A stretch of 64,000 nt of DNA from Candidatus Woesebacteria bacterium RIFCSPLOWO2_01_FULL_44_24b (lineage in GTDB: Bacteria > Patescibacteriota > Microgenomatia > UBA8517), in contig MGHM01000016.1 in the NCBI GenBank assembly GCA_001793235.1, forward strand, positions 746 to 64,745, read 5' to 3'. Within the stretch, counting starts at the first letter, position 1; the number at the start of each line of letters is the position of its first letter. The notes beneath the pieces are model-generated. The model saw only the letters and a program-made list of their open reading frames with translations. It was not told the DNA's origin and did not search any database. Shown one piece after another: positions 9,505 to 19,963 of the stretch. Position numbers and translations under genes: made by a program.

Positions 9505-9711
9505 ATGATAGAATCACTTTGTCTGGATTGCCCATATTTTAGGTCGCTTCCTCTAAAAATACAAGAAGTTGAAACGATTTCTGGGGAAGCAACAGAATCT
9601 GAGCCAACGGTACTCTCCGAGCTTCCCGAGATGTGTGAACGTTGTAAAGCTATACGGGCAATCGATAAAGCGCTGGAGCGCAAGATAAATGACATTATTT
9701 TTAGAAAGTGA
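9505..9711 (+). CDS. hypothetical small Cys-containing protein
   Basis: 68 aa with CLDC ... CERC pairs. Overlaps the next gene start by 4 nt. Confidence 0.3.
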   Translation: MIESLCLDCPYFRSLPLKIQEVETISGEATESEPTVLSELPEMCERCKAIRAIDKALERKINDIIFRK

Positions 9712-10415
9712 CTTCAATTAACCAAATCAAAAGAGAGCTTAGACAAAAGGGGGACCCCGTGCGCGCGGAGCACTCCAGGCGTTTTTTCAAAACCGGCAAA
9801 GGGCAATATGGCGAAGGAGACGTGTTTTTAGGATTATCAGTTCCTGAGATGCGCGAGATTGCCAAAAAATATAAAGACCTGGAACTTAGTGAAATTGAGA
9901 AACTGCTCCGGTCCAAAATTCACGAGGAACGCTTTACTGCAATTGAGATTTTGAATTTTAAGTATAAAGATGCATTGGCACCAGCAAGAAGCAAGATTGT
10001 AAATTTTTATTTAAAGTATAAAGAGTTTGTTAACAACTGGGATTTGGTTGACGATTCGGCTCCGTATATTTTGGGAAACTGGCTTTTAGATAAGGATACT
10101 AAGATTTTGCATAAGCTGGCTGGTTCAAAAAGCCTATGGGACAGGCGCATTGCGATAGTTGCGACTTTCGCTTTTATCAAAAACGATCGTTTTAAAGATA
10201 CCCTTGAGATTTCGGAGAAGCTTCTAGACGACGATGAGGATTTAATTCACAAGGCAGTCGGCTGGATGCTCAGAGAAGTCGGCAAAAAGGATATAAAACT
10301 TCTCGAGAAGTTTCTTGCCAAGCATGCGAGCCACATGCCCAGAACCGCGCTTCGCCACGCCATCGAGCGTTTCCCCGAAAGTAAGCGGGAAAAGTACCTT
10401 AAGATTTCCGGCTAA
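9708..10415 (+). CDS. DNA alkylation repair protein (AlkD/AlkC-like HEAT-repeat glycosylase family)
   Basis: RAEHSRRFFKTG, WDLVDDSAPYILGNWL and WDRRIAIVATF motifs of pfam08713-type proteins. Confidence 0.75.
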   Translation: MTSINQIKRELRQKGDPVRAEHSRRFFKTGKGQYGEGDVFLGLSVPEMREIAKKYKDLELSEIEKLLRSKIHEERFTAIEILNFKYKDALAPARSKIVNFYLKYKEFVNNWDLVDDSAPYILGNWLLDKDTKILHKLAGSKSLWDRRIAIVATFAFIKNDRFKDTLEISEKLLDDDEDLIHKAVGWMLREVGKKDIKLLEKFLAKHASHMPRTALRHAIERFPESKREKYLKISG

Positions 10416-10433
10416 TGATGCTACACTGGATGA

Positions 10434-11678
10434 ATGGCACAGGGTGGCAAAATAAAGAAAAACTGGAAAGCGAAAATTGGTGAGCAAAAAGATGTTGCCA
10501 AGGATACAAAAGAAATTACTTTTGAGATCCACGAGCCGGGTTTTGCTTTTAAGGCTGGTCAGTATGTTTGGATTATAGTTCCCGAACTTCATTATGAGGA
10601 CCCCAGGGGAAATAGAAGGGCGTTTTCAATTTGTTCATCGCCTTCGGAGGATGGCAGGATTTCGGTAGTCTTCAGGAATTACCCGAGCGGCTTTAAAAAG
10701 ACTCTGACCGAGCTTCCGGCGGGTTCCGAGGTATCTGTAGTGGGTCCGTTCGGCTATCTTGATTTTCCCGATAATCCCGAAGCTTCCGTGGTGTTTATTG
10801 CCGGAGGTGTGGGTGTAGCGCCTTTTATGAGCATGGTTAGGAGCGCCGCCGCGAATAAAGACGCAAGAAAAATTACTCTTCTGTATGCCAATTCCACTGA
10901 GACGAAGGCGGTCTATGCCGACGAGCTCTCAAAAATTGCTTCCGAAAATAAAAATATAATTATCAAAGAAAAGAAGGGCACTGTTGACTGGGACTGGATT
11001 TCGGAGTCTGTTTCCGCGCCGGCCAGTGTAATTTGGTATGTAATAGGACCAAAAGATATGGTAAGCGAAGTAGCAAGGCTTTTGTATGACAATGGAGTAG
11101 AAGAAAAGAGTATCAGGTTTGAGGAATTTTATGTCAGCCGCGACTCGCTTAATGTGTCACTTGAAAAAATATGGGACACTGCCGAGGTTTTTAAACTTGC
11201 CGTTGAAAGTTCGTTTAATCATATAATTTTAACCGATATCAACGCAAACATAGTTTTTGCTAATAAAGGTGCCGAGATAATTACCGGTTTTACCAACAAG
11301 GAGATGGTTGGCCAGACGCCAAGGCTTTGGGGCGGGCTCATGGCTAAGGCCTTTTATGAAAAAATGTGGCAAACCATTAAAAATGAGAAAAGACCTTTTG
11401 AAGCTGAAATCAAAAATAGAAGAAAAAGCGGCGAAATTTACCAGACAATTACCCGAATCTCGCCCATTTTTGACAAGACAAATGGTCTTATCGGTTTTAT
11501 GGGGACCGAGGAAGATATAAGCCGCAGGTTAATGCTGGAAGAAGATTTAAAAAATAAAATTGCTGAACTTGAAAAGATAAATAAATTTATGATTGGCCGC
11601 GAGGTTGAAATGCGGGACCTTAAGGAGCGTATCGCGAAACTTCAGCTTGAAATTAAAAAACAAAAAGGGGGTGGTTAA
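10434..11678 (+). CDS. FNR-like FAD/NAD(P)-binding oxidoreductase domain fused to PAS domain and C-terminal coiled coil (output-less sensor)
   Basis: RAFSICSSP (RxYS FAD motif) and GGVGVAPFMSM (NAD-binding motif). A PAS domain (TDINANIVFANKGAEIITGFTNKEMVGQTPR) ends in DIS. C-terminal AELEKINKFMIGREVEMRDLKERIAKLQ. Confidence 0.75.
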   Translation: MAQGGKIKKNWKAKIGEQKDVAKDTKEITFEIHEPGFAFKAGQYVWIIVPELHYEDPRGNRRAFSICSSPSEDGRISVVFRNYPSGFKKTLTELPAGSEVSVVGPFGYLDFPDNPEASVVFIAGGVGVAPFMSMVRSAAANKDARKITLLYANSTETKAVYADELSKIASENKNIIIKEKKGTVDWDWISESVSAPASVIWYVIGPKDMVSEVARLLYDNGVEEKSIRFEEFYVSRDSLNVSLEKIWDTAEVFKLAVESSFNHIILTDINANIVFANKGAEIITGFTNKEMVGQTPRLWGGLMAKAFYEKMWQTIKNEKRPFEAEIKNRRKSGEIYQTITRISPIFDKTNGLIGFMGTEEDISRRLMLEEDLKNKIAELEKINKFMIGREVEMRDLKERIAKLQLEIKKQKGGG

Positions 11679-11679
11679 C

Positions 11680-12252
11680 ATGACTAACAACACCAATGCA
11701 GATGAAATATGGGGAGTTGCCTGGACGTACATCAGAACCGTGGTTGACACACTGCGGGAGCCGTTCTTGGTTCTCAATGGAAAACTGCAAGTTGTCTCTG
11801 CGAACAAAACTTTCTACTCCGTTTTTCAGGTTACACCTGAAGATACGGAAGGGCACCTGGTTTATGAGCTGGGAAACGGTCAATGGAATATTCCAAAGCT
11901 TAAAATCCTTCTGGAAGACATTTTGCCCAAAAATACCTATCTTGAAGATTTTCGAGTTGAACATGATTTTCCCAAAATCGGGCACAAAGTTATGATGCTT
12001 AACGCCCGCGAGGTTCATGGCGTGGAGACCCAAGGTTCTATCATCCTTCTGGCAATGGAGGACATTACAAAACAGATGCAGCTTGAGGATCAATTGCGCG
12101 ATTATGTCAAAAAACTCAACCTTGAGGTGGCTAAAAAAACTGCGGAGCTGGAACTGCGAGTAAAGGAGCTTGAGCGATTGAATGAAATTATGATGGGCAG
12201 GGAAGTGAAAATGTCTCAGTTGAAAGAAGAGATCGGGAAGCTTAAACGGTGA
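11680..12252 (+). CDS. PAS domain protein with C-terminal coiled coil (output-less)
   Basis: Strong RBS aaggggg before the ATG at 11680. PAS fold ending in EDIT. C-terminal ELERLNEIMMGREVKMSQLKEEIGKLK. Confidence 0.7.
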   Translation: MTNNTNADEIWGVAWTYIRTVVDTLREPFLVLNGKLQVVSANKTFYSVFQVTPEDTEGHLVYELGNGQWNIPKLKILLEDILPKNTYLEDFRVEHDFPKIGHKVMMLNAREVHGVETQGSIILLAMEDITKQMQLEDQLRDYVKKLNLEVAKKTAELELRVKELERLNEIMMGREVKMSQLKEEIGKLKR

Positions 12253-12264
12253 CAAGGAAAAGCC

Positions 12265-13800
12265 ATGAATCCGAACCTGTCCAAAACAAAATTATTAAGT
12301 CAAGCAACCGGAACGGGAGTAATCTCGGTTGTTCTTCTGGCTATTGGCCTGTTTGTTACCTTTCTTGCCTGGCGCTACACTCAAAATAGTGTTACACAAA
12401 GCGCACAGGACCAATTTAGTGCTGAAGTTAATCAGATTGAACATACGGTGGCAAGAAGGATTGAAACTTATAATCGTGTGCTTTATTCACTTCAAGGTCT
12501 ATTTGCAGCCTCCGATTCCGTTGATAGAGATGAGTGGAGCCCGTTTACTAAAACTGCAAAAATCTCTGATTACCCCGATATTGAATATATCAGCTATCTT
12601 GAGATAGTAAGGGCTGGCGAGAAAGAAGCATTTGTAGAGAATTTTAGGAGCGATAAAAGTACAAGTCCTGTTGGCTATCCGGGACTTAATATTTACCCTG
12701 AAGCCACAAAGGATGAGTATGCTGTCGTAAAATATATTGAGCCTGAAAATGAAGTTTCTATCAAAGCTTTAGGCTTTGATTTGTATTCAAGTCCTCCCAG
12801 AAAAGCTGCTTTAGACAAGGCGCGCGATACCAACCAACCTGTAGCTAGCGAGATTGTAAAGTTTGTTACGGACGGCTCTTTGGGCTTTTTTATTTCGGTA
12901 CCAGTCTACCAAAATGGCGTGCCGGTGAACACTGTCGATGAAAGAAGAGCGGCATTGGTGGGCTTTGTAAATCTGGCTATCAAAAACACTCACTTGTTTG
13001 TTGACGCTTTTTCACCCGGTAGCCGTACGGGCGTGCAATTTACGATTTCTGATGGGGTGCAAGTAATTTATACAAGTGGAGAAGTTGTGAATACTCCTGG
13101 CACATACTCTCAAACAAGAGTACTTGAAATGGGCGGGCGGACGTGGACTCTGAAGGTTATTAGCGACCCTTTGTTTAGCCAATCATTCTCACAAAAGACC
13201 CTTCCTTTGGTAGTAGCCATAGGCGGAACTTTACTAAGCTTACTTTTGTTTTGGATAATTTATTATTCAGGAAGGTCTGCCAACCGGCTCATCAGGCTTC
13301 AAGGCACGGCTCTCGAAGCCGCTGCCAATAGCATTGTTATTACAGACATCAATGGGATTATTCAGTGGGTGAATCCGGCTTTTACCAAACTTACTGGATA
13401 CCCGGCCGCTGAGGCAGTGGGGCAATCAACACGTATTCTTAACTCGGGCAAACAACGTAAAGAATTTTATGAGAACCTTTGGAAAACTATTTTGGCAGGG
13501 AAAACATGGAAGGGCGAGATGATCAATAAACGCAAGGACGGGACGCTCTATTATGAGGAGCAGACTATCGCCCCGGTCAAGGACAAAAGTGGAAGGCTAA
13601 TAAACTTTATAGCAATTAAGCAAGACGTTACAGCCCGAAATGAGTTTGAGCGCACGCTTGAGGAGACAAAAAATAATCTAGGCCAAAAAGTGGCGGAGCT
13701 GGAAAAACTGAACAGATTCATGGTTGGGCGGGAACTTAAAATGCGCGAGTTGAAACAGCACATCGTCGAGCTTGAGGCAAAGAAGGGAGACAATGGATAG
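12265..13800 (+). CDS. membrane sensor: TM-periplasmic CHASE-like domain-TM-PAS-coiled coil (output-less)
   Basis: Two TM segments flank an extracytoplasmic domain of about 270 aa. Cytoplasmic PAS (ITDINGIIQWVNPAFTKLTGY ... ) ends in IKQDVT. C-terminal AELEKLNRFMVGRELKMRELKQHIVELE. Confidence 0.7.
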   Translation: MNPNLSKTKLLSQATGTGVISVVLLAIGLFVTFLAWRYTQNSVTQSAQDQFSAEVNQIEHTVARRIETYNRVLYSLQGLFAASDSVDRDEWSPFTKTAKISDYPDIEYISYLEIVRAGEKEAFVENFRSDKSTSPVGYPGLNIYPEATKDEYAVVKYIEPENEVSIKALGFDLYSSPPRKAALDKARDTNQPVASEIVKFVTDGSLGFFISVPVYQNGVPVNTVDERRAALVGFVNLAIKNTHLFVDAFSPGSRTGVQFTISDGVQVIYTSGEVVNTPGTYSQTRVLEMGGRTWTLKVISDPLFSQSFSQKTLPLVVAIGGTLLSLLLFWIIYYSGRSANRLIRLQGTALEAAANSIVITDINGIIQWVNPAFTKLTGYPAAEAVGQSTRILNSGKQRKEFYENLWKTILAGKTWKGEMINKRKDGTLYYEEQTIAPVKDKSGRLINFIAIKQDVTARNEFERTLEETKNNLGQKVAELEKLNRFMVGRELKMRELKQHIVELEAKKGDNG

Positions 13801-15412
13801 TTTAGTATCTGAACAGGAAAACTCAATACTGAATTTGCTGCCGGTCGGGGTGGGGATTTCGGATATGCAGGGGAATCTCTTGTTTTATAACACCGCGATG
13901 CTTGCCTCAGGCGGCTATTCGCGGGAGGAGATGCAAAAGATCGACAATGTTGCGGCTTTGTATTATGACCCCGAAGCACGAACTAAAGTTCTGTCTCTTG
14001 CGAAAAGCCAAGGGTATGTGAACGGTTGTGAGGTGGAATTTAAACGCCGGGATGGCTCACCCTATTCTACGTTGCTCTCCCTAAGAATGATTCGTTATAA
14101 AGAGGCTCCCGCGTGGCTGGCGATAGTGGAGGATATTACAAAGAAAAAATCTCTCGAAGTGTCGGAAGAAAAACGCACTGGTGACCTTGAAAACACCAAA
14201 CTTGCCATGATAAACCTTTTGGAGGATCTTGACGCAGAGAAAGCTGTGTTGGAGCAAGAAAGGAAAAAGGACGATGCCCTTTTGGTCAGTATTGGCGATG
14301 GCGTAGTGGTGACGGATGAGCTGGGCCATATAACTTTCGTCAATAAAGCTTTTGAAGATTTAACCGGATGGAGTCTTCTGGAAGTTGCCGGGAAGTTAAT
14401 GGTGGACATATTGCCTAAGTATGATGAAAAAGATGGGTTGATTGAGCACGCCGAGCGTTCAGTAACCAAAGTATTGGAAGGAAAAGTTGCAAGGGGCAGC
14501 ATGAGTACTCTAAATCGTTCGCATTATTACAAAAAAAAGGACGGCTCGAAAATGCCCATTGTCGGTGTTGTTACTCCAATTGTGGTTAATGACGCAATTG
14601 CGGGTGCCGTTCAGGTGTTTAGGGATGTTACCCTCGAAAAGGAAATTGACACAATGAAGGACGAGTTCGTGTCCATTGCGAGTCATGAGCTTCGAACCCC
14701 GTTGACAGCCATTGACGGCTTGGTTTCCATGATCCTTGACGGCGAATATGGGCATGTCGGCGAAAACCTTAGTCAGCCGCTCAAGGACATCAGCACTTCC
14801 AGCGAGAGGCTTATAAGGCTCGTAAATGACCTTCTCAATCTGTCAAGACTCCGAGCAGGAAGACTTCAGTATAATCTTACCGATTTTTCTATTTCGGCTA
14901 TTGTGCATAAAGTTGTAGAGTTGTTAGCTCAAATGTTTGAAGAAAAAGGGTTTTATTTAAAGATTGCGAGCGATCTTGAAGTAAATGTTTTTGCGGACAG
15001 CGATAAGGTAGAGCAGATTCTTAATAATCTGATTGGTAACTCGCTTAAGTTTACGGACAAAGGTGGGGCCGTTGTTAATGTAGAAGAACTTCCGGACTTA
15101 ATTAAAGTTAGTATTGTAGATACTGGAATCGGCATAGAAAAGGACGCTCAAGGACAACTTTTTGGCAGGTTCCAGCAGATCGGTACGTCTGGTAACAGAC
15201 CGCAGGGAACGGGCTTGGGGCTTCATATCAGCCGCGAGATGGTGAGAAGAATGGGCGGGGACCTGGTGCTTGAAAATTCCGAGCCGGGAAAGGGGAGTAC
15301 ATTTACTTTTACTTTACCTAAAGTTGGAGGCCCGCTGGCTGAAAAAATTAGAGAAGAAATCATCCTTGAAGCAAGGATGCATCCCGACCAAAAATCGGAT
15401 ATAATGGGTTGA
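13793..15412 (+). CDS. PAS-PAS sensor histidine kinase (HisKA + HATPase_c)
   Basis: The ATG overlaps the upstream stop (ATGGATAG) and is preceded by an aagggag RBS. H-box FVSIASHELRTPLTAI. N, G1 and G2 boxes (NLIGNSLKFT, DTGIGI, GTGLGLHISREMV). Confidence 0.85.
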   Translation: MDSLVSEQENSILNLLPVGVGISDMQGNLLFYNTAMLASGGYSREEMQKIDNVAALYYDPEARTKVLSLAKSQGYVNGCEVEFKRRDGSPYSTLLSLRMIRYKEAPAWLAIVEDITKKKSLEVSEEKRTGDLENTKLAMINLLEDLDAEKAVLEQERKKDDALLVSIGDGVVVTDELGHITFVNKAFEDLTGWSLLEVAGKLMVDILPKYDEKDGLIEHAERSVTKVLEGKVARGSMSTLNRSHYYKKKDGSKMPIVGVVTPIVVNDAIAGAVQVFRDVTLEKEIDTMKDEFVSIASHELRTPLTAIDGLVSMILDGEYGHVGENLSQPLKDISTSSERLIRLVNDLLNLSRLRAGRLQYNLTDFSISAIVHKVVELLAQMFEEKGFYLKIASDLEVNVFADSDKVEQILNNLIGNSLKFTDKGGAVVNVEELPDLIKVSIVDTGIGIEKDAQGQLFGRFQQIGTSGNRPQGTGLGLHISREMVRRMGGDLVLENSEPGKGSTFTFTLPKVGGPLAEKIREEIILEARMHPDQKSDIMG

Positions 15413-15415
15413 ACT

Positions 15416-15823
15416 ATGGCAGAGCCTAAAAAGATATTAATAGTTGAGGATGACACTGTCTTGGCCGGCATGTATAAAAAGCTTCTCGAAAACCACGGCT
15501 TTCATGTAGTAACCGCAGAAGATGGAGAAGCGGGGCTTTTAACTGCGGTTTCAGAAAAACCAGATTTGGTACTCCTCGATATCCGAATGCCTAAAATGGA
15601 CGGCTTGACCATGATGGACAACTTACGAAAAAATGAGTGGGGCAAAACGGTTCCGATAATAATTTTTACAAATCTGGATACAAACGAGGAAATGCTAGTG
15701 CAGATTGTGAAAGGCATGCCAACTTTTTATTTGGTTAAAAGTAACACTCGTCCGGAAACAGTACTTGAAAAGGTGGACGAGGTATTAAATCCTTTAGGAA
15801 ATGGCAAAGATACTATTAGTTGA
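15416..15823 (+). CDS. single-domain response regulator (receiver only)
   Basis: ILIVEDD ... DLVLLDIRMPKMDG ... YLVKS. CheY-like, no output domain. Confidence 0.85.
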   Translation: MAEPKKILIVEDDTVLAGMYKKLLENHGFHVVTAEDGEAGLLTAVSEKPDLVLLDIRMPKMDGLTMMDNLRKNEWGKTVPIIIFTNLDTNEEMLVQIVKGMPTFYLVKSNTRPETVLEKVDEVLNPLGNGKDTIS

Positions 15824-16202
15824 TGACGATGCGCTTCTGGTAAGAATGTACCAGAAGAAAATGGAGAACGATGGTTTTGTTGTTGAAACCGCCGCTGACG
15901 GTGTTGAAGGCTTAAAAAAAGTCCTCGAGTTTAAGCCCGATTTGATTCTCCTGGATGTGATGATGCCCAAGCTCAACGGCTTTGAGATGCTGGAGCGGCT
16001 CAAGGCTCAGGAGGCAACAAGTAAAATTCCAGTTATAATTTTGAGTAACGTTGGTGCCTCCGAGGAGGACATTGAAAAAGGATTTAGCTTGGGCGCGGTT
16101 TCGTATTTGGTTAAGTCCGGCAACCGCCCCAATATGGTTGTGGCCAAGGTTAAGGAAGTCTTGTTTGGTTATGTGCGCGAAGTCCCCAAAGTAGCAGCCT
16201 AG
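15801..16202 (+). CDS. single-domain response regulator (receiver only)
   Basis: ILLVDDD ... DLILLDVMMPKLNG ... YLVKS. Paralogue of the gene at 15416. Confidence 0.85.
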   Translation: MAKILLVDDDALLVRMYQKKMENDGFVVETAADGVEGLKKVLEFKPDLILLDVMMPKLNGFEMLERLKAQEATSKIPVIILSNVGASEEDIEKGFSLGAVSYLVKSGNRPNMVVAKVKEVLFGYVREVPKVAA

Positions 16203-17755
16203 ACCTCCAGATGCTTTTTGAGAAATCTGGATAAGAAGAAAACCGGAATAACGGATAGGGTTATTAAAATTATGCTTCCAAGAAATGTTAAGTTGATTGA
16301 CGCCTGAGCCGCATCGGTAAGAGTATTTTCGGGCTTTGCTACCGAAATCATCCCGATTGTCTCGCCACCGAACGATGTAAGAGGCGCATAGGCAACGTAG
16401 TATGGCCGGTTATAAATCTGCGATGTACCGATGAAAGTTTCGCCGTTTTCCAATACTTTTTTGATTATTGCCTGATTTGCCTCTTTGGTCCCCACAAATC
16501 TTGACTTGCCATCTTCGGAAACTAAAGTTGTGGCGGCGCGTTTGTCCCGGCCGAAGATGGTGGTGTCAAGGCCGGTTGCGTTTTTTACTCCGTCCACAAA
16601 CGAATTATCAATTCTAACACCAGCCAGAACCATTCCCACAATAGCCGAGTCACTTCCCTTAACAGGCGCTGCAGCTTTTATAAAGGTTTCCGGAGCAATT
16701 ACACCTTCAAGAGATGAGAGTGTTGAGACGCTCTCGCCCTTCAGGGCTGCTTCAAATAATGCGTCCCCTTTTAACGACTCGTTTGTGGCATCGCGGTTTT
16801 CGGCACGGACTACCACGCGCCCCGAGGAGTCAATCAGCGCAAGCGTTGTCAGGCCTTGGGTTGTGAGGTGAGCGCTTGTTAGAGCATATAAAGCATCACT
16901 GTCTCCGGCGGTAAAGGCCTGCAGAACCGAGTTGTCTGCCGCCACCGCTTGAGCGTGGGCAAGTGCTTCGGACTTAAGAGACTCGAGTGAGTACTGCATT
17001 ACGTTAGTATCGGTTTTAAGGTGTGCCAAAGCGTCATTTTGCAAGTTGTTAAGTAGGAGGTACGTAAAAAATAGTGTTGTAGACAAGAAGATAAAAACAG
17101 AAAGCGCAATAGTTATTACAAAAAGCTGAATTTGCAGCCTGAAGCGGATAAAACCCCAAATCCATACTCCAAGTATGACTATTCCTATCCCCATGAAAGC
17201 GCTTTCGATGTTTGCAATCAGACCGAATTTGGCAAGTAACCTTGACCAATGAACTATTGAGGTATCAGACCACGCGAAGCTCACCGAAATTATTTTGGCA
17301 ATGCCCAGAAAAAGGAAAGCCAAAGCTGCAGGTTTGAGCTGCTTTTCATAGCCTTCGGTTGATTTTCGGTAGTAAACCAGAGCAATGAGAAAGTACAGTA
17401 CGGCAGACAGTGGAGTGAGTGCAAATCCTAAGGCCGGGATAAATGCAGCAGCCTTCCTGGTTTTTGGCGGGGAGAGTACCGGTTCGCCGATAAGGCTTGC
17501 GAGAATTAAGATAAGCCCGAAAACTTCGGTAATTTCGAGTACCACCATCAAGGCACTTGAGGCAGGCGAAGCCGCACGAGCTGCCTGTACGGCGGCGAGC
17601 ACAAGAAAACCCATGCTTCTGGTAAATACCGTCTTGCTTTTGATGTTTACCACCCAGGAATCAAAATATAAAAGTGCGGCCGAGAAAAATACAAAGGCAC
17701 TAAGAACAGCCAGCGTAAAGTGGGCGGTGTTGGCGAATAAAAGATACAAGAGCAT
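16199..17755 (-). CDS. polytopic membrane protein with extracytoplasmic Cache-like sensor domain and C-terminal TM (no output domain)
   Basis: About 7 N-terminal TM helices, a 250-aa Ser/Ala/Gly-rich alpha/beta region, and a final TM (LTFLGSIILITLSVIPVFFL). Confidence 0.5.
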   Translation of the reverse strand: MLLYLLFANTAHFTLAVLSAFVFFSAALLYFDSWVVNIKSKTVFTRSMGFLVLAAVQAARAASPASSALMVVLEITEVFGLILILASLIGEPVLSPPKTRKAAAFIPALGFALTPLSAVLYFLIALVYYRKSTEGYEKQLKPAALAFLFLGIAKIISVSFAWSDTSIVHWSRLLAKFGLIANIESAFMGIGIVILGVWIWGFIRFRLQIQLFVITIALSVFIFLSTTLFFTYLLLNNLQNDALAHLKTDTNVMQYSLESLKSEALAHAQAVAADNSVLQAFTAGDSDALYALTSAHLTTQGLTTLALIDSSGRVVVRAENRDATNESLKGDALFEAALKGESVSTLSSLEGVIAPETFIKAAAPVKGSDSAIVGMVLAGVRIDNSFVDGVKNATGLDTTIFGRDKRAATTLVSEDGKSRFVGTKEANQAIIKKVLENGETFIGTSQIYNRPYYVAYAPLTSFGGETIGMISVAKPENTLTDAAQASINLTFLGSIILITLSVIPVFFLSRFLKKHLEV

Positions 17756-17761
17756 ATTTAA

Positions 17762-19963
17762 TTATTGCATATTATTAAGACTATCCACTATTTCGTCTTT
17801 TGTCATAACGCCGAGCTTGACATCAATAATCTTGCCTGCGGTGTTAATAAAGAAACTCTTTGGTAAATAATTGACGTTAAAGCCGGAAGCACTTGTGCCT
17901 ATGCTGTCGTAAACAACCGGGAATTGATATGCCCCCCTCTGCATCAAAACCCGCGTTGAGGCTTCGCTTTGCTGCAGGGAGACCGCAAGAATATTTGAGT
18001 TTTCCGGTAGTTCATCACTCGCGTCGGAGAGTATGGCTGCCTGCTCGAGCGCTTGCGGAAACAAGGGAGAGAAGAAGGTAAGAAGAAGATTTTTACCTCG
18101 CAAATTGGCAAGAGAGATATTTACCCCGCTTGGGTCCGGCAGGCTGAGATCCGGAACCGGCTGACCAAGTAAGCTGTCGGTTTGAGCTTGAACGTCGGAC
18201 TCAAATTCCACATTTACACTCTCCGGGGGAGCAAATAGCTCGGGGATGGTCAGTATGATTTTCCCGATAATGGGCAGGGTAAGAATTAATGTAGGTTTTG
18301 AGCGGAGGGCAAGATCAGCATTAATCGCCGTCGTTTTTGTTAGCGTAAATATCTGGCTTTGAGTTTTGCGATAGCCCTCTGCCTCCGCCTCAATATAATA
18401 CTTTCCCGGGGGAGCCATGAAACTGTAAGTGCCGGTTTCACTTATTTTTTGAGGGTTCTTTTGACCATAGGACCCGGCATCCCAAAGGACCCACGAGCTT
18501 GAGATGGTGTCGAAAAAGAAGAGTTTAACTTCGGCCCCGGCGACTGATGAGCCCTTTTCCTTATCCGTAATTTGCCCCGGTTTTTGAATGAAAAGTGTAC
18601 CAAAAGCGCGCTCGGTGGTATTGTTCGCGCCGTCCGTAGCCGTGATAGTCAGTTGTTTTTCGCCCTCATCATTGAAACCGATTTTTCCGCTCCAAATATC
18701 CGTGCCCGCTTGTTGCTTTAATTCAAATTCAGTGTTGCCGGCAATAATTTTTGCGCTTGTCACGCCGCCTTTCATGCCGACGGCGACGGTAATGTCTGCT
18801 CCGCTTATTGCAGTAATTATGTTATTTTCGGGAATGAGTACCGAAGGCCCGAGGGTTAGTGTGCCCCCGCCGATGACCGGCGCGAAAGTGTCGATTACTA
18901 AGGTTAGAGTTTTCGATATTCCGACATTGCCCGACTCGTCAAAGGCCCGTGCGGCTATTTCGTAGTTTCCGTCTTCCAGGGCCTGCGGTGTGAATGAAAA
19001 TTGCCCTCTGGAATAGGCAGCGTCCAACCAGCTTTTGCCTCCGTCCAAGCTGACGTCGACCGAGGCTACGGAGGAAAACGCGCTTGATGCAGTGCCTGTT
19101 ATGGTCGGCGTCGTATTGCCGGTGGGGTTTTGGGCAAAGTCATTAAGCGTGACTGCCGGTGGAGTTACCGAGAAGCTGACCGATGCGTAGTTTTGGGCTT
19201 GGGTATAAACCTGAGCCAGTGACTTTGCCCGGGCCAGCACTGTGAAGTTCCCGGTAATGAAGGAAATGTTCGGGGTAAAGGTGAAATCTTCTTCCTCTTC
19301 GTCAAATTTGCCGTCACTTGGCGTTGCTCCATTCCAGCTCCCGCCGTTGTCTAAACTATATTCAGCAGTCTCAATTACCCCGTTTTCAATTGAGGAAGTA
19401 CCTTTAAATTCAAGTCCATCTCTTGCGAGAGTTAGTGAAGGATAATAGATAGGCCCTGATGTAGCCGAAGGTGCGCTTGTTGCCCCGGATGTACTAGTTG
19501 GCGCAGGGCTGGCTGTTGCTCCGGGTGACGGAAATGAAGTAGGAGTCGGTGTTGGAGTTGGTGTGGGCGCTGAAACGGTAATGGCATTAGTCATAGTATA
19601 GGTGTTGCTTGCGCCACCACCGCAGGCATTATTTCCCCAGGCAACGAAACTAATACTATATGTCCCCGGCGAGCTGGGGGCAGTCACTGAAATGCTTTCG
19701 TTGAAGGTCCCATTAGAAGTGTAGTTGGTGTGGTCCACACAGTTGGCCCCGCTTATATCCCAAGTTGAGCTCTGCCAGTTGCTTCCGGATGACGTAGTTA
19801 CGTTTATTGCCGCCGTAATGGTTGCCGAAGGGGCGACAGTTACGGTACTGGCGCCATTAAGGGTTACCGAGTTAATAGTGGTTGCTGCCAGTGCAGATGC
19901 CGGGAAAAGCATTAAAAGCACCAGAGCCAACAACAATCCCTGAACAAATTTGGGCAGAGGCAT
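17762..19963 (-). CDS. large secreted cell-surface protein: Ig-like/CARDB-like domains, PT linker, carboxypeptidase-regulatory-like domain, C-terminal redox-inactive TlpA/thioredoxin-like domain
   Basis: Signal peptide MPLPKFVQGLLLALVLLMLFPASALA. (PT)5 linker. C-terminal LRGKNLLLTFFSPLFPQA aligns to the TlpA WCxPC site with both cysteines replaced. Confidence 0.55.
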   Translation of the reverse strand: MPLPKFVQGLLLALVLLMLFPASALAATTINSVTLNGASTVTVAPSATITAAINVTTSSGSNWQSSTWDISGANCVDHTNYTSNGTFNESISVTAPSSPGTYSISFVAWGNNACGGGASNTYTMTNAITVSAPTPTPTPTPTSFPSPGATASPAPTSTSGATSAPSATSGPIYYPSLTLARDGLEFKGTSSIENGVIETAEYSLDNGGSWNGATPSDGKFDEEEEDFTFTPNISFITGNFTVLARAKSLAQVYTQAQNYASVSFSVTPPAVTLNDFAQNPTGNTTPTITGTASSAFSSVASVDVSLDGGKSWLDAAYSRGQFSFTPQALEDGNYEIAARAFDESGNVGISKTLTLVIDTFAPVIGGGTLTLGPSVLIPENNIITAISGADITVAVGMKGGVTSAKIIAGNTEFELKQQAGTDIWSGKIGFNDEGEKQLTITATDGANNTTERAFGTLFIQKPGQITDKEKGSSVAGAEVKLFFFDTISSSWVLWDAGSYGQKNPQKISETGTYSFMAPPGKYYIEAEAEGYRKTQSQIFTLTKTTAINADLALRSKPTLILTLPIIGKIILTIPELFAPPESVNVEFESDVQAQTDSLLGQPVPDLSLPDPSGVNISLANLRGKNLLLTFFSPLFPQALEQAAILSDASDELPENSNILAVSLQQSEASTRVLMQRGAYQFPVVYDSIGTSASGFNVNYLPKSFFINTAGKIIDVKLGVMTKDEIVDSLNNMQ

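What the first reader, a model, noticed from the sequence alone, without database searches (positions are those of the whole stretch)
10434..16202. Signalling island: three output-less PAS proteins sharing a conserved C-terminal coiled-coil motif, then a PAS-PAS histidine kinase and two receiver-only regulators
Three consecutive genes encode different sensory inputs (FNR-like flavin/NAD oxidoreductase module + PAS; PAS alone; TM-CHASE-like-TM + PAS). None has an enzymatic or DNA-binding output. All three end in the same roughly 30-aa motif: AELEK(I/L)N(K/R)FM(I/V)GRE(V/L)(E/K)M(R/S)(D/E/Q)LK(E/Q)xIxxL. They are followed, with start/stop overlap, by a PAS-PAS-HisKA-HATPase kinase whose inter-PAS linker (DLENTKLAMINLLEDLDAEK) is a related coiled coil, and then by two CheY-like receivers without output domains. 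The shared terminal helix suggests the three sensors act as trans-acting modulators that dock by coiled-coil heteromerisation onto the kinase, or onto each other. That would be a split, combinatorial-input two-component architecture, which is not a standard described arrangement.
Basis: partly seen in the sequence, partly recalled or inferred. Interest (0 to 1): 0.65.

Follow-up and report, generated by a model that had tools for sequence, protein, structure and literature searches.

The report
Helix-tailed sensors paired with a kinase
Three sensor proteins with no output domain all end in the same conserved helix, and across thousands of bacteria such helix-tailed sensors sit directly upstream of histidine kinases that carry a second conserved helix, which suggests an undescribed way of plugging separate sensors into one kinase.

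Summary
Genes A (FNR-like + PAS), B (PAS) and C (TM-CHASE-TM-PAS) each end in the helix motif ELExxNxxM(V/I)GRExxMxxLK ("GRE tail"). They are followed by a PAS-PAS-HisKA-HATPase kinase and two receiver-only regulators, all tightly packed. The contig is from Candidatus Woesebacteria (CPR).

The tail is not a local oddity. A 41-position profile finds 11,716 protein clusters, and the motif lies almost always at the extreme C-terminus of PAS, HAMP, Cache or CHASE sensors that lack an output domain. No Pfam, NCBIfam or PDB entry covers it, and I found no paper on it.

In 78 genome loci a kinase gene follows the last GRE gene at +1 or +2 in 47 cases. Of 46 such kinases outside the window, 45 carry the helix seen in this kinase's inter-PAS linker (KAMLN(I/L)LED, "NILED"). 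Only 2 of 24 other kinases do. Searching from the NILED side recovers upstream GRE genes. Some partner kinases consist only of NILED repeats plus the catalytic core.

Best reading: GRE-tailed sensors feed the kinase in trans through GRE-NILED helix association. The genetic coupling is shown. The physical docking is inferred.

The parts
10434..11678 (+). Gene A, 414 aa: FNR-like FAD/NAD(P)H module + PAS + GRE tail
   Evidence: Pfam FAD_binding_6, NAD_binding_1 and PAS_9. Annotated as a hypothetical protein, OGM31158.
11535..11660 (+). GRE tail of A (aa 368-409): ...AELEKINKFMIGREVEMRDLKERIAKL...
11680..12252 (+). Gene B, 190 aa: small PAS protein + GRE tail. It belongs to a very conserved ~195-aa family.
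   Evidence: AF2 pLDDT 81, PAS core plus helix 130-189. Foldseek hits BvgS, FixL and short-LOV PAS structures. 2,244 homologues, the top 120 at 67-84% identity.
12133..12249 (+). GRE tail of B (aa 152-190): ...KELERLNEIMMGREVKMSQLKEEIGKLKR
12265..13800 (+). Gene C, 511 aa: TM-CHASE-TM-PAS (NifL-like) + GRE tail
   Evidence: Pfam CHASE 3e-38, PAS 8e-20. AF2 of aa 335-511: pLDDT 96.6, one uninterrupted 54-residue C-terminal helix.
13657..13785 (+). GRE tail of C (aa 465-507): ...AELEKLNRFMVGRELKMRELKQHIVEL...
   Evidence: C itself scores E=1.6e-13 against the motif profile (P0102).
13793..15412 (+). Histidine kinase, 539 aa: PAS - NILED helix - PAS - HisKA (H-box SHELRTP at 14681-14701) - HATPase_c. 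It overlaps the stop of gene C by 8 nt.
14165..14284 (+). NILED helix of the kinase (aa 125-164): EEKRTGDLENTKLAMINLLEDLDAEKAVLEQERKKDDALL
   Evidence: The same helix is present in 45 of 46 kinases downstream of GRE genes and in the kinases next to B-type homologues.
15416..15823 (+). RR1, 135 aa, receiver domain only (DD, D55, T, K present on reading the sequence)
   Evidence: Pfam Response_reg 1.8e-22.
15801..16202 (+). RR2, 133 aa, receiver domain only
   Evidence: Pfam Response_reg 5.4e-25.

Best explanation
The island is a two-component system in which sensing and kinase activity lie on separate polypeptides.

A, B and C are each a sensor module: a flavin/NAD(P)H module plus PAS, a PAS alone, and an extracytoplasmic CHASE plus PAS. 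In each, the last PAS runs into one long C-terminal helix that carries the GRE motif. This helix is their only output element.

The kinase carries a matching 'socket', the NILED helix, just upstream of its last PAS-DHp-CA transmitter. I propose that sensor dimers dock their GRE helices onto the NILED coiled coil of the kinase dimer. Both helices have a widened hydrophobic patch at the same level, which suggests a four-helix bundle. The invariant Arg-Glu of GRE faces the invariant Glu-Asp of NILED. Signal-dependent helix movements in the sensors would then be passed to the kinase and modulate autophosphorylation, and with it phosphotransfer to the two single-domain regulators.

B-kinase-RR is the ancestral, widely conserved core. 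A and C are additional inputs recruited to the same socket.

Shown: the domains, the motif, its C-terminal position, its wide distribution, and the gene-level coupling of GRE tails with NILED kinases. Inferred: direct helix-helix binding, the geometry, the sign of regulation, and whether the inputs add or compete.
For: Motif and position:
- The motif is a real, widespread, terminal module: 11,716 clusters at E<=1e-3. Its median distance to the C-terminus is 16 aa in the top 148 hits. 95% of 113 occurrences in genome loci end within 30 aa of the C-terminus.
- Its carriers are sensors without outputs. Of 148: PAS 61, HAMP 36, dCache 13, CHASE 7, PocR 4, GAF 4, and at most one with a kinase domain.
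- Proteins with an internal motif are tandem fusions of two sensor-plus-GRE units. GRE is never followed by a kinase domain.

Linkage to kinases:
- A kinase lies at +1 in 35 of 75 loci and at +2 in 12 of 71. Background at other offsets is 0-7%. Receiver-only genes lie at +2 to +4. Gene gaps are mostly -4 to +7 nt.
- The NILED helix is in 33 of 46 (strict regex) or 45 of 46 (relaxed regex) downstream kinases, against 0 of 24 or 2 of 24 other kinases. Fisher p = 2e-9 and 7e-15.
- The reciprocal scan from NILED finds a GRE gene at -1 or -2 in about 16 of about 21 informative loci.
- The pairing holds in distant lineages and with different kinase cores: hybrid HAMP-NILED-HisKA-CA-REC-Hpt (L111, L120), an N-terminal NILED helix at aa 25 (L121), REC-NILED-PAS-HK (L121), and a MEDS-linked example (L122).
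- Sensor-less kinases consisting of 4-5 NILED repeats plus HisKA plus HATPase_c lie directly after multi-PAS GRE proteins.
- B-type proteins in other CPR contigs are followed, after 12-16 nt, by an orthologous PAS-NILED-PAS kinase and a receiver.

Other support:
- GRE and NILED subtypes co-vary across 65 pairs.
- Net charge over the core 20 positions is +1.6 for GRE and -2.9 for NILED.
- The GRE region is predicted as one continuous helix leaving the PAS core.
Against: - No physical or structural evidence of binding was obtained. Multimer prediction was not possible with these tools.
- The loci were retrieved with motif-derived patterns, and many come from related CPR lineages, so the counts are not phylogenetically independent. 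The Fisher p-values overstate the evidence.
- About a quarter to a third of GRE genes have no kinase within two genes. One sits in a mobile-element context (L118).
- In L113 the downstream kinase has only a degenerate NILED-like stretch.
- The window has three GRE sensors but only one NILED unit per kinase chain, so simultaneous docking of all three is not obviously possible.
- Gene calling was crude (greedy ORFs) and the helices were detected with regular expressions.
Confidence: 0.6

Rival explanations
1. The GRE helix is only a homodimerisation or capping coiled coil, like the J-alpha helix of short LOV proteins. The sensors act through something other than the adjacent kinase, or merely bind ligands. 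The operon linkage would then reflect general clustering of signalling genes.
For: B's model resembles full-length short LOV proteins, which have a PAS core with N- and C-terminal helices and no effector. The heptad pattern is that of a coiled coil, and PDB hits are only to designed coiled coils. Some GRE genes have no nearby kinase.
Against: Generic clustering does not explain why the neighbouring kinases, and almost only those, carry the NILED helix. It does not explain the reciprocal recovery, nor the existence of kinases whose only non-catalytic part is NILED repeats. The near-invariant G/R/E/N/K positions exceed what a plain dimerisation zipper needs.
Confidence: 0.15
2. The GRE tail is the docking site for the phosphorylated single-domain response regulators, as CheY-P binds short helical peptides. 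The sensors would then be targets or feedback points of the pathway rather than inputs.
For: One to three receiver-only genes follow the kinase in most loci (35%, 33% and 16% at +2, +3 and +4). The island encodes no other output.
Against: Receiver genes follow most kinases anyway. The feature that specifically co-varies with GRE is in the kinase. Operons with hybrid kinases (L111, L120) keep the GRE-NILED pairing. Proteins built only of sensory domains make poor output targets.
Confidence: 0.1
3. A, B and C are leftovers of gene fission or decay of a multi-sensor kinase. Alternatively, C and the kinase are joined by frameshifting across their 8-nt overlap, so that no trans-acting mechanism exists.
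For: C and the kinase overlap. The two helices start alike (ELE...M). The modular PAS-helix units resemble the N-terminal parts of long kinases.
Against: The ORFs are intact in 24 contigs. The B family keeps 67-84% identity over its full length in more than 100 clusters and always stops 8-34 aa after the motif. Gaps to the kinase range from -47 to +234 nt in different frames. At most 1 of 148 motif proteins continues into a kinase domain.
Confidence: 0.05
4. GRE and NILED helices do not bind each other. Both bind a shared third component, such as a scaffold, the membrane or a small protein, which brings sensors and kinase together.
For: Co-occurrence alone cannot distinguish direct from indirect association. 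Small extra proteins (V4R, MEDS) lie between GRE genes and NILED kinases in some operons.
Against: No third gene is consistently present. The minimal CPR operon is B-kinase-RR. Direct pairing is the simpler reading of the charge complementarity and the matching hydrophobic patches.
Confidence: 0.1

Closest known systems
Stand-alone sensors co-cistronic with sensor-less kinases: H-NOX/HqsK and NosP/VpsS (PMC6769237)
   Same: A separate sensor protein is encoded next to a histidine kinase and controls its autophosphorylation in trans. Some partner kinases have no sensor domain of their own, as in loci L101, L102 and L109 here.
   Different: Those sensors are haem proteins of the H-NOX or NosP type, with no shared docking motif described. 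Here any sensor type (PAS, HAMP, Cache, CHASE, PocR, GAF, FNR-like) carries one common terminal helix, and the kinases carry a common partner helix. Several sensors can be linked to one kinase.
Short LOV / short PAS proteins (PpSB1-LOV, PpSB2-LOV, SBW25-LOV and others)
   Same: PAS core flanked by an N-terminal helix and a long C-terminal helix, with no effector domain. B's model matches these structures.
   Different: The PAS domains here have no LOV cysteine motif (read from the sequences). Short LOV proteins have no reported conserved GRE-type tail or dedicated kinase partner (from my own knowledge).
Signalling helix (S-helix) and PAS/HAMP-to-DHp coiled-coil linkers of sensor kinases (Anantharaman, Balaji and Aravind 2006, recalled from memory; Moglich review PMC6798134)
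   Same: A coiled-coil helix leaves a sensor domain and carries the signal. The NILED helix sits exactly where such linkers sit. In L111 and L120 it lies about 20 aa before the H-box.
   Different: The S-helix is defined as an intramolecular linker between two domains, with an ERT-type signature. The GRE helix ends the protein and has a different signature. The proposal here is an intermolecular version.
Split histidine kinases (CheA3/CheA4 type; PMC3591291)
   Same: A kinase function is distributed over two polypeptides that must associate.
   Different: There the split is between the ATP-binding and phosphotransfer parts (abstract of PMC3591291). Here DHp and CA are in one chain, and the split is between sensor and transmitter.

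Membership tests
Canonical two-component system (HisKA-type kinase + receiver) | DHp domain with phospho-acceptor His (H-box) and a HATPase_c catalytic domain in the kinase | tested here: met
   HisKA 1.3e-17, HATPase_c 3.2e-25. H-box SHELRTP at aa 297-303. PDB kinase cores match at E=9e-35.
Canonical two-component system (HisKA-type kinase + receiver) | Receiver domain with the acidic pocket and phospho-acceptor Asp | tested here: met
   Response_reg 1.8e-22 and 5.4e-25. DD, D55/D52, T/S and K residues seen on reading the sequences.
Canonical two-component system (HisKA-type kinase + receiver) | Response regulator with an output (DNA-binding or enzymatic) domain | tested here: not met
   Both regulators are 133-135 aa and receiver-only. 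No output domain is encoded in the island.
Signalling helix (S-helix) family | Coiled-coil segment lying between an N-terminal sensory domain and a C-terminal output domain of the same protein | tested here: not met
   The GRE helix ends the protein. Median distance to the C-terminus is 16 aa (top 148 hits); in the 113 genome-locus occurrences the motif match ends a median 4 aa from it. The NILED helix of the kinase does meet this positional criterion.
Signalling helix (S-helix) family | Central conserved ERT-type signature (definition recalled from memory, not checked against the paper) | tested here: not met
   The consensus is LNxxMvGRExxMxELK. No Pfam or NCBIfam model matches the tail.
Short LOV photoreceptors | PAS core with flanking A'alpha and J-alpha helices and no effector domain | tested here: met
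   AF2 models. Foldseek hits to PpSB1, PpSB2, SBW25 and PF5 short LOV proteins at E of about 1e-6.
Short LOV photoreceptors | Flavin-binding LOV motif with the photoactive cysteine (GxNCRFLQ) | tested here: not met
   The corresponding stretches read GQSTRILNS (C) and GQTPRLWGG (A), with no equivalent in B (sequences). The YtvA and LOV-HK NCBIfam hits are far below their cut-offs.
H-NOX / NosP accessory sensor-kinase pairs | Stand-alone sensor gene co-cistronic with the kinase it regulates | tested here: met
   Gaps of +1, +12 and -8 nt in the window. A kinase lies at +1 or +2 in 47 loci. Regulation itself was not tested.
H-NOX / NosP accessory sensor-kinase pairs | H-NOX or NosP (FIST-type) haem domain as the sensor | tested here: not met
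   Pfam finds only FNR-like, PAS and CHASE domains.
Split histidine kinases (Amin et al. 2013) | ATP-binding and phosphotransfer activities on two different proteins | tested here: not met
   HisKA and HATPase_c are in one chain. Definition from the abstract of PMC3591291.
Proposed GRE-tail / NILED-helix sensor-kinase pairs (defined in this report) | Sensor protein ending in the GRE helix, with no output domain | tested here: met
   A, B and C.
Proposed GRE-tail / NILED-helix sensor-kinase pairs (defined in this report) | Adjacent downstream kinase carrying a NILED helix upstream of DHp | tested here: met
   Kinase aa 125-164.
Proposed GRE-tail / NILED-helix sensor-kinase pairs (defined in this report) | Physical association of the two helices and sensor-dependent kinase regulation | not testable with these tools
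   No multimer prediction or experiment was available.

The most novel reading that the evidence does not exclude
GRE tails and NILED helices form a general plug-and-socket system. Any sensor module ending in a GRE helix could be attached non-covalently to any kinase carrying one or more NILED units. Gene-level shuffling of small sensor genes would then rewire kinase inputs. Several sensors (three here) could be integrated or compete at one kinase. Kinases with tandem NILED repeats would offer several sockets. This would be a new modular principle of bacterial signal integration. It is widespread (more than 10,000 protein clusters) and dominant in the reduced genomes of CPR bacteria.
Probability: 0.4. 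Interest if true: 0.85.

Novelty: new variant of a known kind. Interest (0 to 1): 0.72.

Why it matters
Sensor proteins with 'no output domain' are a long-standing loose end in censuses of bacterial signalling. Here a large class of them gets a testable output, a roughly 40-residue terminal helix, and a testable partner, a specific helix in the neighbouring kinase.

If the docking is real, it explains how one kinase can collect several unrelated inputs without domain fusion (redox/NAD(P)H, a cytoplasmic PAS ligand and an extracytoplasmic CHASE ligand in this window). It would also give a rule for predicting sensor-kinase wiring from sequence. And it would offer synthetic biology a compact natural connector pair for attaching new sensors to kinases.

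It also supplies functional annotation for thousands of 'hypothetical' or 'PAS domain-containing' proteins. These include a highly conserved ~195-aa protein family of Patescibacteria that some pipelines currently label CheR.

Tried and rejected
- A motif-only profile in the word-indexed protein search found nothing, because the query was too short. The exhaustive representative search worked instead.
- The 8-sequence motif alignment was too variable for the locus finder. A closer 5-sequence set worked.
- Homology between the GRE and NILED helices: hhalign puts the N-terminal halves in the same register, but at probability 3.7%, so I do not claim homology.
- PDB sequence search with the motif gave only designed coiled-coil peptides at E>0.1.
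- Pfam at E<=10 and NCBIfam gave no model for either helix.
- The promoter/terminator scan of 9600-16600 found no more sites than in shuffles, so it is not informative.
- Literature searches by motif strings and by concept found no description.
- An apparent protein with both helices (L106 gene 7) was a false NILED regex hit, FALINLVGD. No protein with both a genuine GRE and a genuine NILED helix was seen.
- I considered a linker-fusion trick for complex prediction and dropped it. The tool returns no contacts or PAE and refuses foreign sequences.
- I considered and rejected programmed frameshifting and pseudogene readings (see rival explanations).
Full report
**1. What is in the window**

ORF listing and Pfam scans confirm six tightly packed genes on the + strand.
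- A, 10434-11678: FAD_binding_6 + NAD_binding_1 + PAS.
- B, 11680-12252: a 190-aa PAS protein.
- C, 12265-13800: CHASE between hydrophobic segments, then PAS.
- Kinase, 13793-15412: PAS-PAS-HisKA-HATPase_c, with H-box SHELRTP.
- Two receiver-only proteins, 15416-15823 and 15801-16202.

Gene spacing is +1, +12, -8, +3 and -23 nt. Exact-sequence look-up shows the same arrangement on 24 contigs from several groundwater samples. It assigns the genes to Candidatus Woesebacteria bacterium RIFCSPHIGHO2_01_FULL_44_21, where they are annotated as hypothetical, 'PAS domain-containing' or 'histidine kinase'.

B is only weakly recognised as PAS by Pfam. An AlphaFold2 model built on 53 homologues (pLDDT 81) shows a PAS core with an N-terminal helix and a 60-residue C-terminal helix. 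Foldseek matches BvgS, FixL, DosP and full-length short-LOV PAS structures. The PAS-tail part of C models at pLDDT 96.6, with one uninterrupted 54-residue helix leaving the PAS core.

**2. The shared tail is real and specific**

The regex GRE..[MLIVF]..[LIVMF][KR] occurs three times in the six-frame translation of the whole 64-kb window. Each hit lies in the last 30 residues of A, B or C. The three tails share 13 invariant positions.

**3. The tail is a widespread, unnamed, terminal module**

A 41-position profile searched against 1.84 billion representative proteins found 11,716 proteins at E<=1e-3 and 74 at E<=1e-10. In the best 148, the motif ends a median of 16 residues before the C-terminus.

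Pfam on these 148 finds only sensory or transducer domains: PAS 61, HAMP 36, dCache_1 13, CHASE 7, PocR 4, GAF 4, CHASE4 3. At most one protein has a kinase domain.

The few proteins with an internal copy are tandem fusions of two 'sensor + tail' units, for example dCache-HAMP-PAS-GRE-PocR-PAS-GRE. The tail is never followed by a kinase, cyclase or DNA-binding domain.

No Pfam or NCBIfam model covers the tail. No solved structure does either. Literature searches by motif strings and by concept found nothing.

**4. Linkage to kinases**

A scan of one genome per species returned 250 relatives, and I kept 79 loci. Most are Patescibacteria/CPR. Others are labelled Gammaproteobacteria, Nitrospirae, Delta- and Zetaproteobacteria, Omnitrophota and Kapabacteria. 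I analysed them with my own greedy ORF calls and HMMs.
- 113 tail-bearing genes lie in 78 loci. 32 loci have two or three of them, adjacent and co-directional.
- 95% of tails end within 30 residues of the C-terminus.
- A kinase core gene follows the last tail gene at +1 in 35 of 75 loci and at +2 in 12 of 71. At other offsets the rate is 0-7%.
- Receiver-only genes follow at +2 (35%), +3 (33%) and +4 (16%).
- Gaps to the kinase are mostly -4 to +7 nt.

**5. The kinase-side helix**

The window kinase's inter-PAS linker (DLENTKLAMINLLEDLDAEK) is an instance of a conserved helix, consensus LExxKxAMLN(I/L)LEDxExxK. I call it NILED.

A strict regex finds it in 33 of 46 kinases downstream of tail genes, in 0 of 24 other kinases in the same loci, and in 3 of 1,227 non-kinase ORFs. 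Two of those three ORFs lie directly after a tail gene. Reading the 13 regex-negative kinases shows obvious variants in nearly all. A relaxed regex gives 45 of 46 against 2 of 24. Fisher p-values are 2e-9 and 7e-15, although the loci are not phylogenetically independent.

**6. Reciprocal test**

I scanned metagenome contigs from the NILED side only, which gave 24 loci. Of about 21 with visible upstream DNA, about 16 have a tail gene at -1 or -2. One contig has two such pairs.

**7. Generality across lineages and kinase types**

Context look-ups for distant tail proteins give the same picture. This subfamily carries an extra G-x-P-x-Y extension.
- L111 and L120: two tail sensors, a V4R protein, then a hybrid kinase (HAMP-NILED-HisKA-HATPase-REC-REC-Hpt). 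Its NILED helix lies about 20 residues before the H-box.
- L121: two pairs. One kinase starts with NILED at residue 25. The other is REC-NILED-PAS-HK, preceded by a REC-PAS-tail protein.
- L122: sensor, MEDS protein, then a NILED protein.
- L113: only a degenerate NILED-like stretch.
- L118: no kinase, in a mobile-element context.

In L101, L102 and L109 the kinase consists of four or five tandem ~21-residue NILED repeats followed by HisKA and HATPase_c. Pfam detects no sensory domain in these kinases. Each is preceded, with an overlapping or near-abutting stop/start (-4 to +2 nt), by a multi-PAS tail protein. Fourteen NILED carriers have the helix within their first 15-54 residues. In these kinases the helix cannot be a cis linker from an upstream sensor.

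**8. The core of the window's system**

B belongs to a strikingly conserved family. There are 2,244 hits, and the best 120 are all 188-244 aa (mostly 190-210) at 67-84% identity. All carry the tail or a (N/D/S/A)RE variant 8-34 residues from the end.

Two B homologues on long CPR contigs are each followed, after 12-16 nt, by a 524-525-aa soluble PAS-NILED(KAMLNVMEDLE)-PAS-HisKA-HATPase kinase that aligns with the window's kinase. A receiver-only gene comes next. B-kinase-RR is therefore the conserved triad. A and C look like additional inputs acquired in this lineage.

**9. How the helices compare**

Aligned on their shared ELE...M start, both helices show a heptad core plus a widened hydrophobic patch at the same level (positions 10-19). 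Over that level the invariant residues are G-R-E in the tail and N-x-L-E-D in the kinase helix. Net charge over the central 20 positions is +1.6 for the tail and -2.9 for the kinase helix.

Subtypes co-vary across 65 pairs. FQKLTVGRE tails go with tandem NILEDF repeats, and ...MEEL(R/K) tails go with AMLYMLEDLxES. This may partly reflect phylogeny. Profile-profile comparison does not support homology of the two helices.

**10. Interpretation**

The data show a conserved genetic module: one or more output-less sensors ending in the GRE helix, then a kinase carrying the NILED helix, then single-domain regulators.

The most economical mechanism is non-covalent docking of the sensor's terminal helix onto the kinase's NILED coiled coil. 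This would be an intermolecular version of the PAS/HAMP-to-DHp signalling helix, letting separate sensors drive one transmitter. The step is inferred, not shown. Rival readings are listed separately with lower confidence. They are: a pure dimerisation cap, a docking site for the receivers, fission debris or frameshift fusion, and a shared third partner.

The closest known systems are stand-alone H-NOX and NosP sensors, which are co-cistronic with sensor-less kinases (PMC6769237). 'Split kinases' in the literature are a different split, between the ATP-binding and phosphotransfer parts (PMC3591291).

**11. Limits**

- Loci were retrieved with motif-derived patterns.
- ORF calling was crude, and the helices were detected with regular expressions.
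- CPR lineages are strongly over-represented.
- Only the best 150 of the 11,716 hits were inspected.
- No complex prediction or experiment was possible.
- What the two receiver-only regulators control remains unknown.

Noticed in passing
window 16199-17755 (-): A 518-aa multi-TM protein with dCache_3/Cache_3-Cache_2 domains. It has no cytoplasmic output domain and no GRE tail. It is convergent with RR2 and overlaps it by 4 nt. This is another output-less sensor next to the island.
   Followed up: partly
L101 3267-4346, L102 912-2090, L109 489-1583: Kinases whose whole N-terminal region is 4-5 tandem repeats of a ~21-residue unit (TQRAVLNILEDFDAEKxxLE), followed directly by HisKA and HATPase_c. 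Pfam detects no sensory domain.
   Followed up: yes
P0098, P0105, P0109, P0118, P0214, P0217 and others (tails listed): Outside CPR the GRE helix is followed, after about 8 residues, by a second short motif, G-x-P-x-(Y/F). Examples are LGEPVRYAS, GQPPAYPP and GREPPYPE. The three window proteins lack it. Its role is unexplained.
   Followed up: no
L111 11012-11539, L120 6451-6978, L122 2682-3338: Small stand-alone V4R (175 aa) or MEDS (218 aa) proteins lie between GRE sensors and the NILED kinase in distant operons. They may be further accessory inputs, and they have no GRE tail.
   Followed up: partly
window 11680-12252 and homologues P0262-P0380: The B family (~195 aa) is unusually conserved, with 61% mean column identity over 53 sequences. 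Invariant residues include W11, W15, Y17, R26/E27, QW and the LLEDILPKN stretch. Several members are labelled 'chemotaxis protein methyltransferase CheR' by JGI. No part of these ~195-aa, PAS-plus-helix proteins looks like a methyltransferase domain, so the label looks like a mis-annotation.
   Followed up: partly
window 13772 / 13793: The kinase start is ambiguous. A TTG at 13772 gives 546 aa and a 29-nt overlap with C. The ATG at 13793 gives 539 aa and an 8-nt overlap. Public annotations use both.
   Followed up: partly
L050, L054, L075, L079, L080, L098, L121 (10712-12019): Some GRE-tailed proteins begin with a receiver domain (REC-PAS-GRE) and precede a NILED kinase. This suggests phosphorelay cascades in which one system's output is a GRE helix feeding the next kinase.
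   Followed up: partly
L118 291-2793: One distant GRE protein (P0105) lies next to a Y1 transposase and a conjugative-transfer gene cluster (TrbI, CagX, VirB8, TrbL), with no kinase nearby.
   Followed up: no
window 17762-19963 (-): A 733-aa secreted-looking protein that combines Big_13 repeats with a C-terminal AhpC-TSA/Redoxin domain, an unusual fusion.
   Followed up: no
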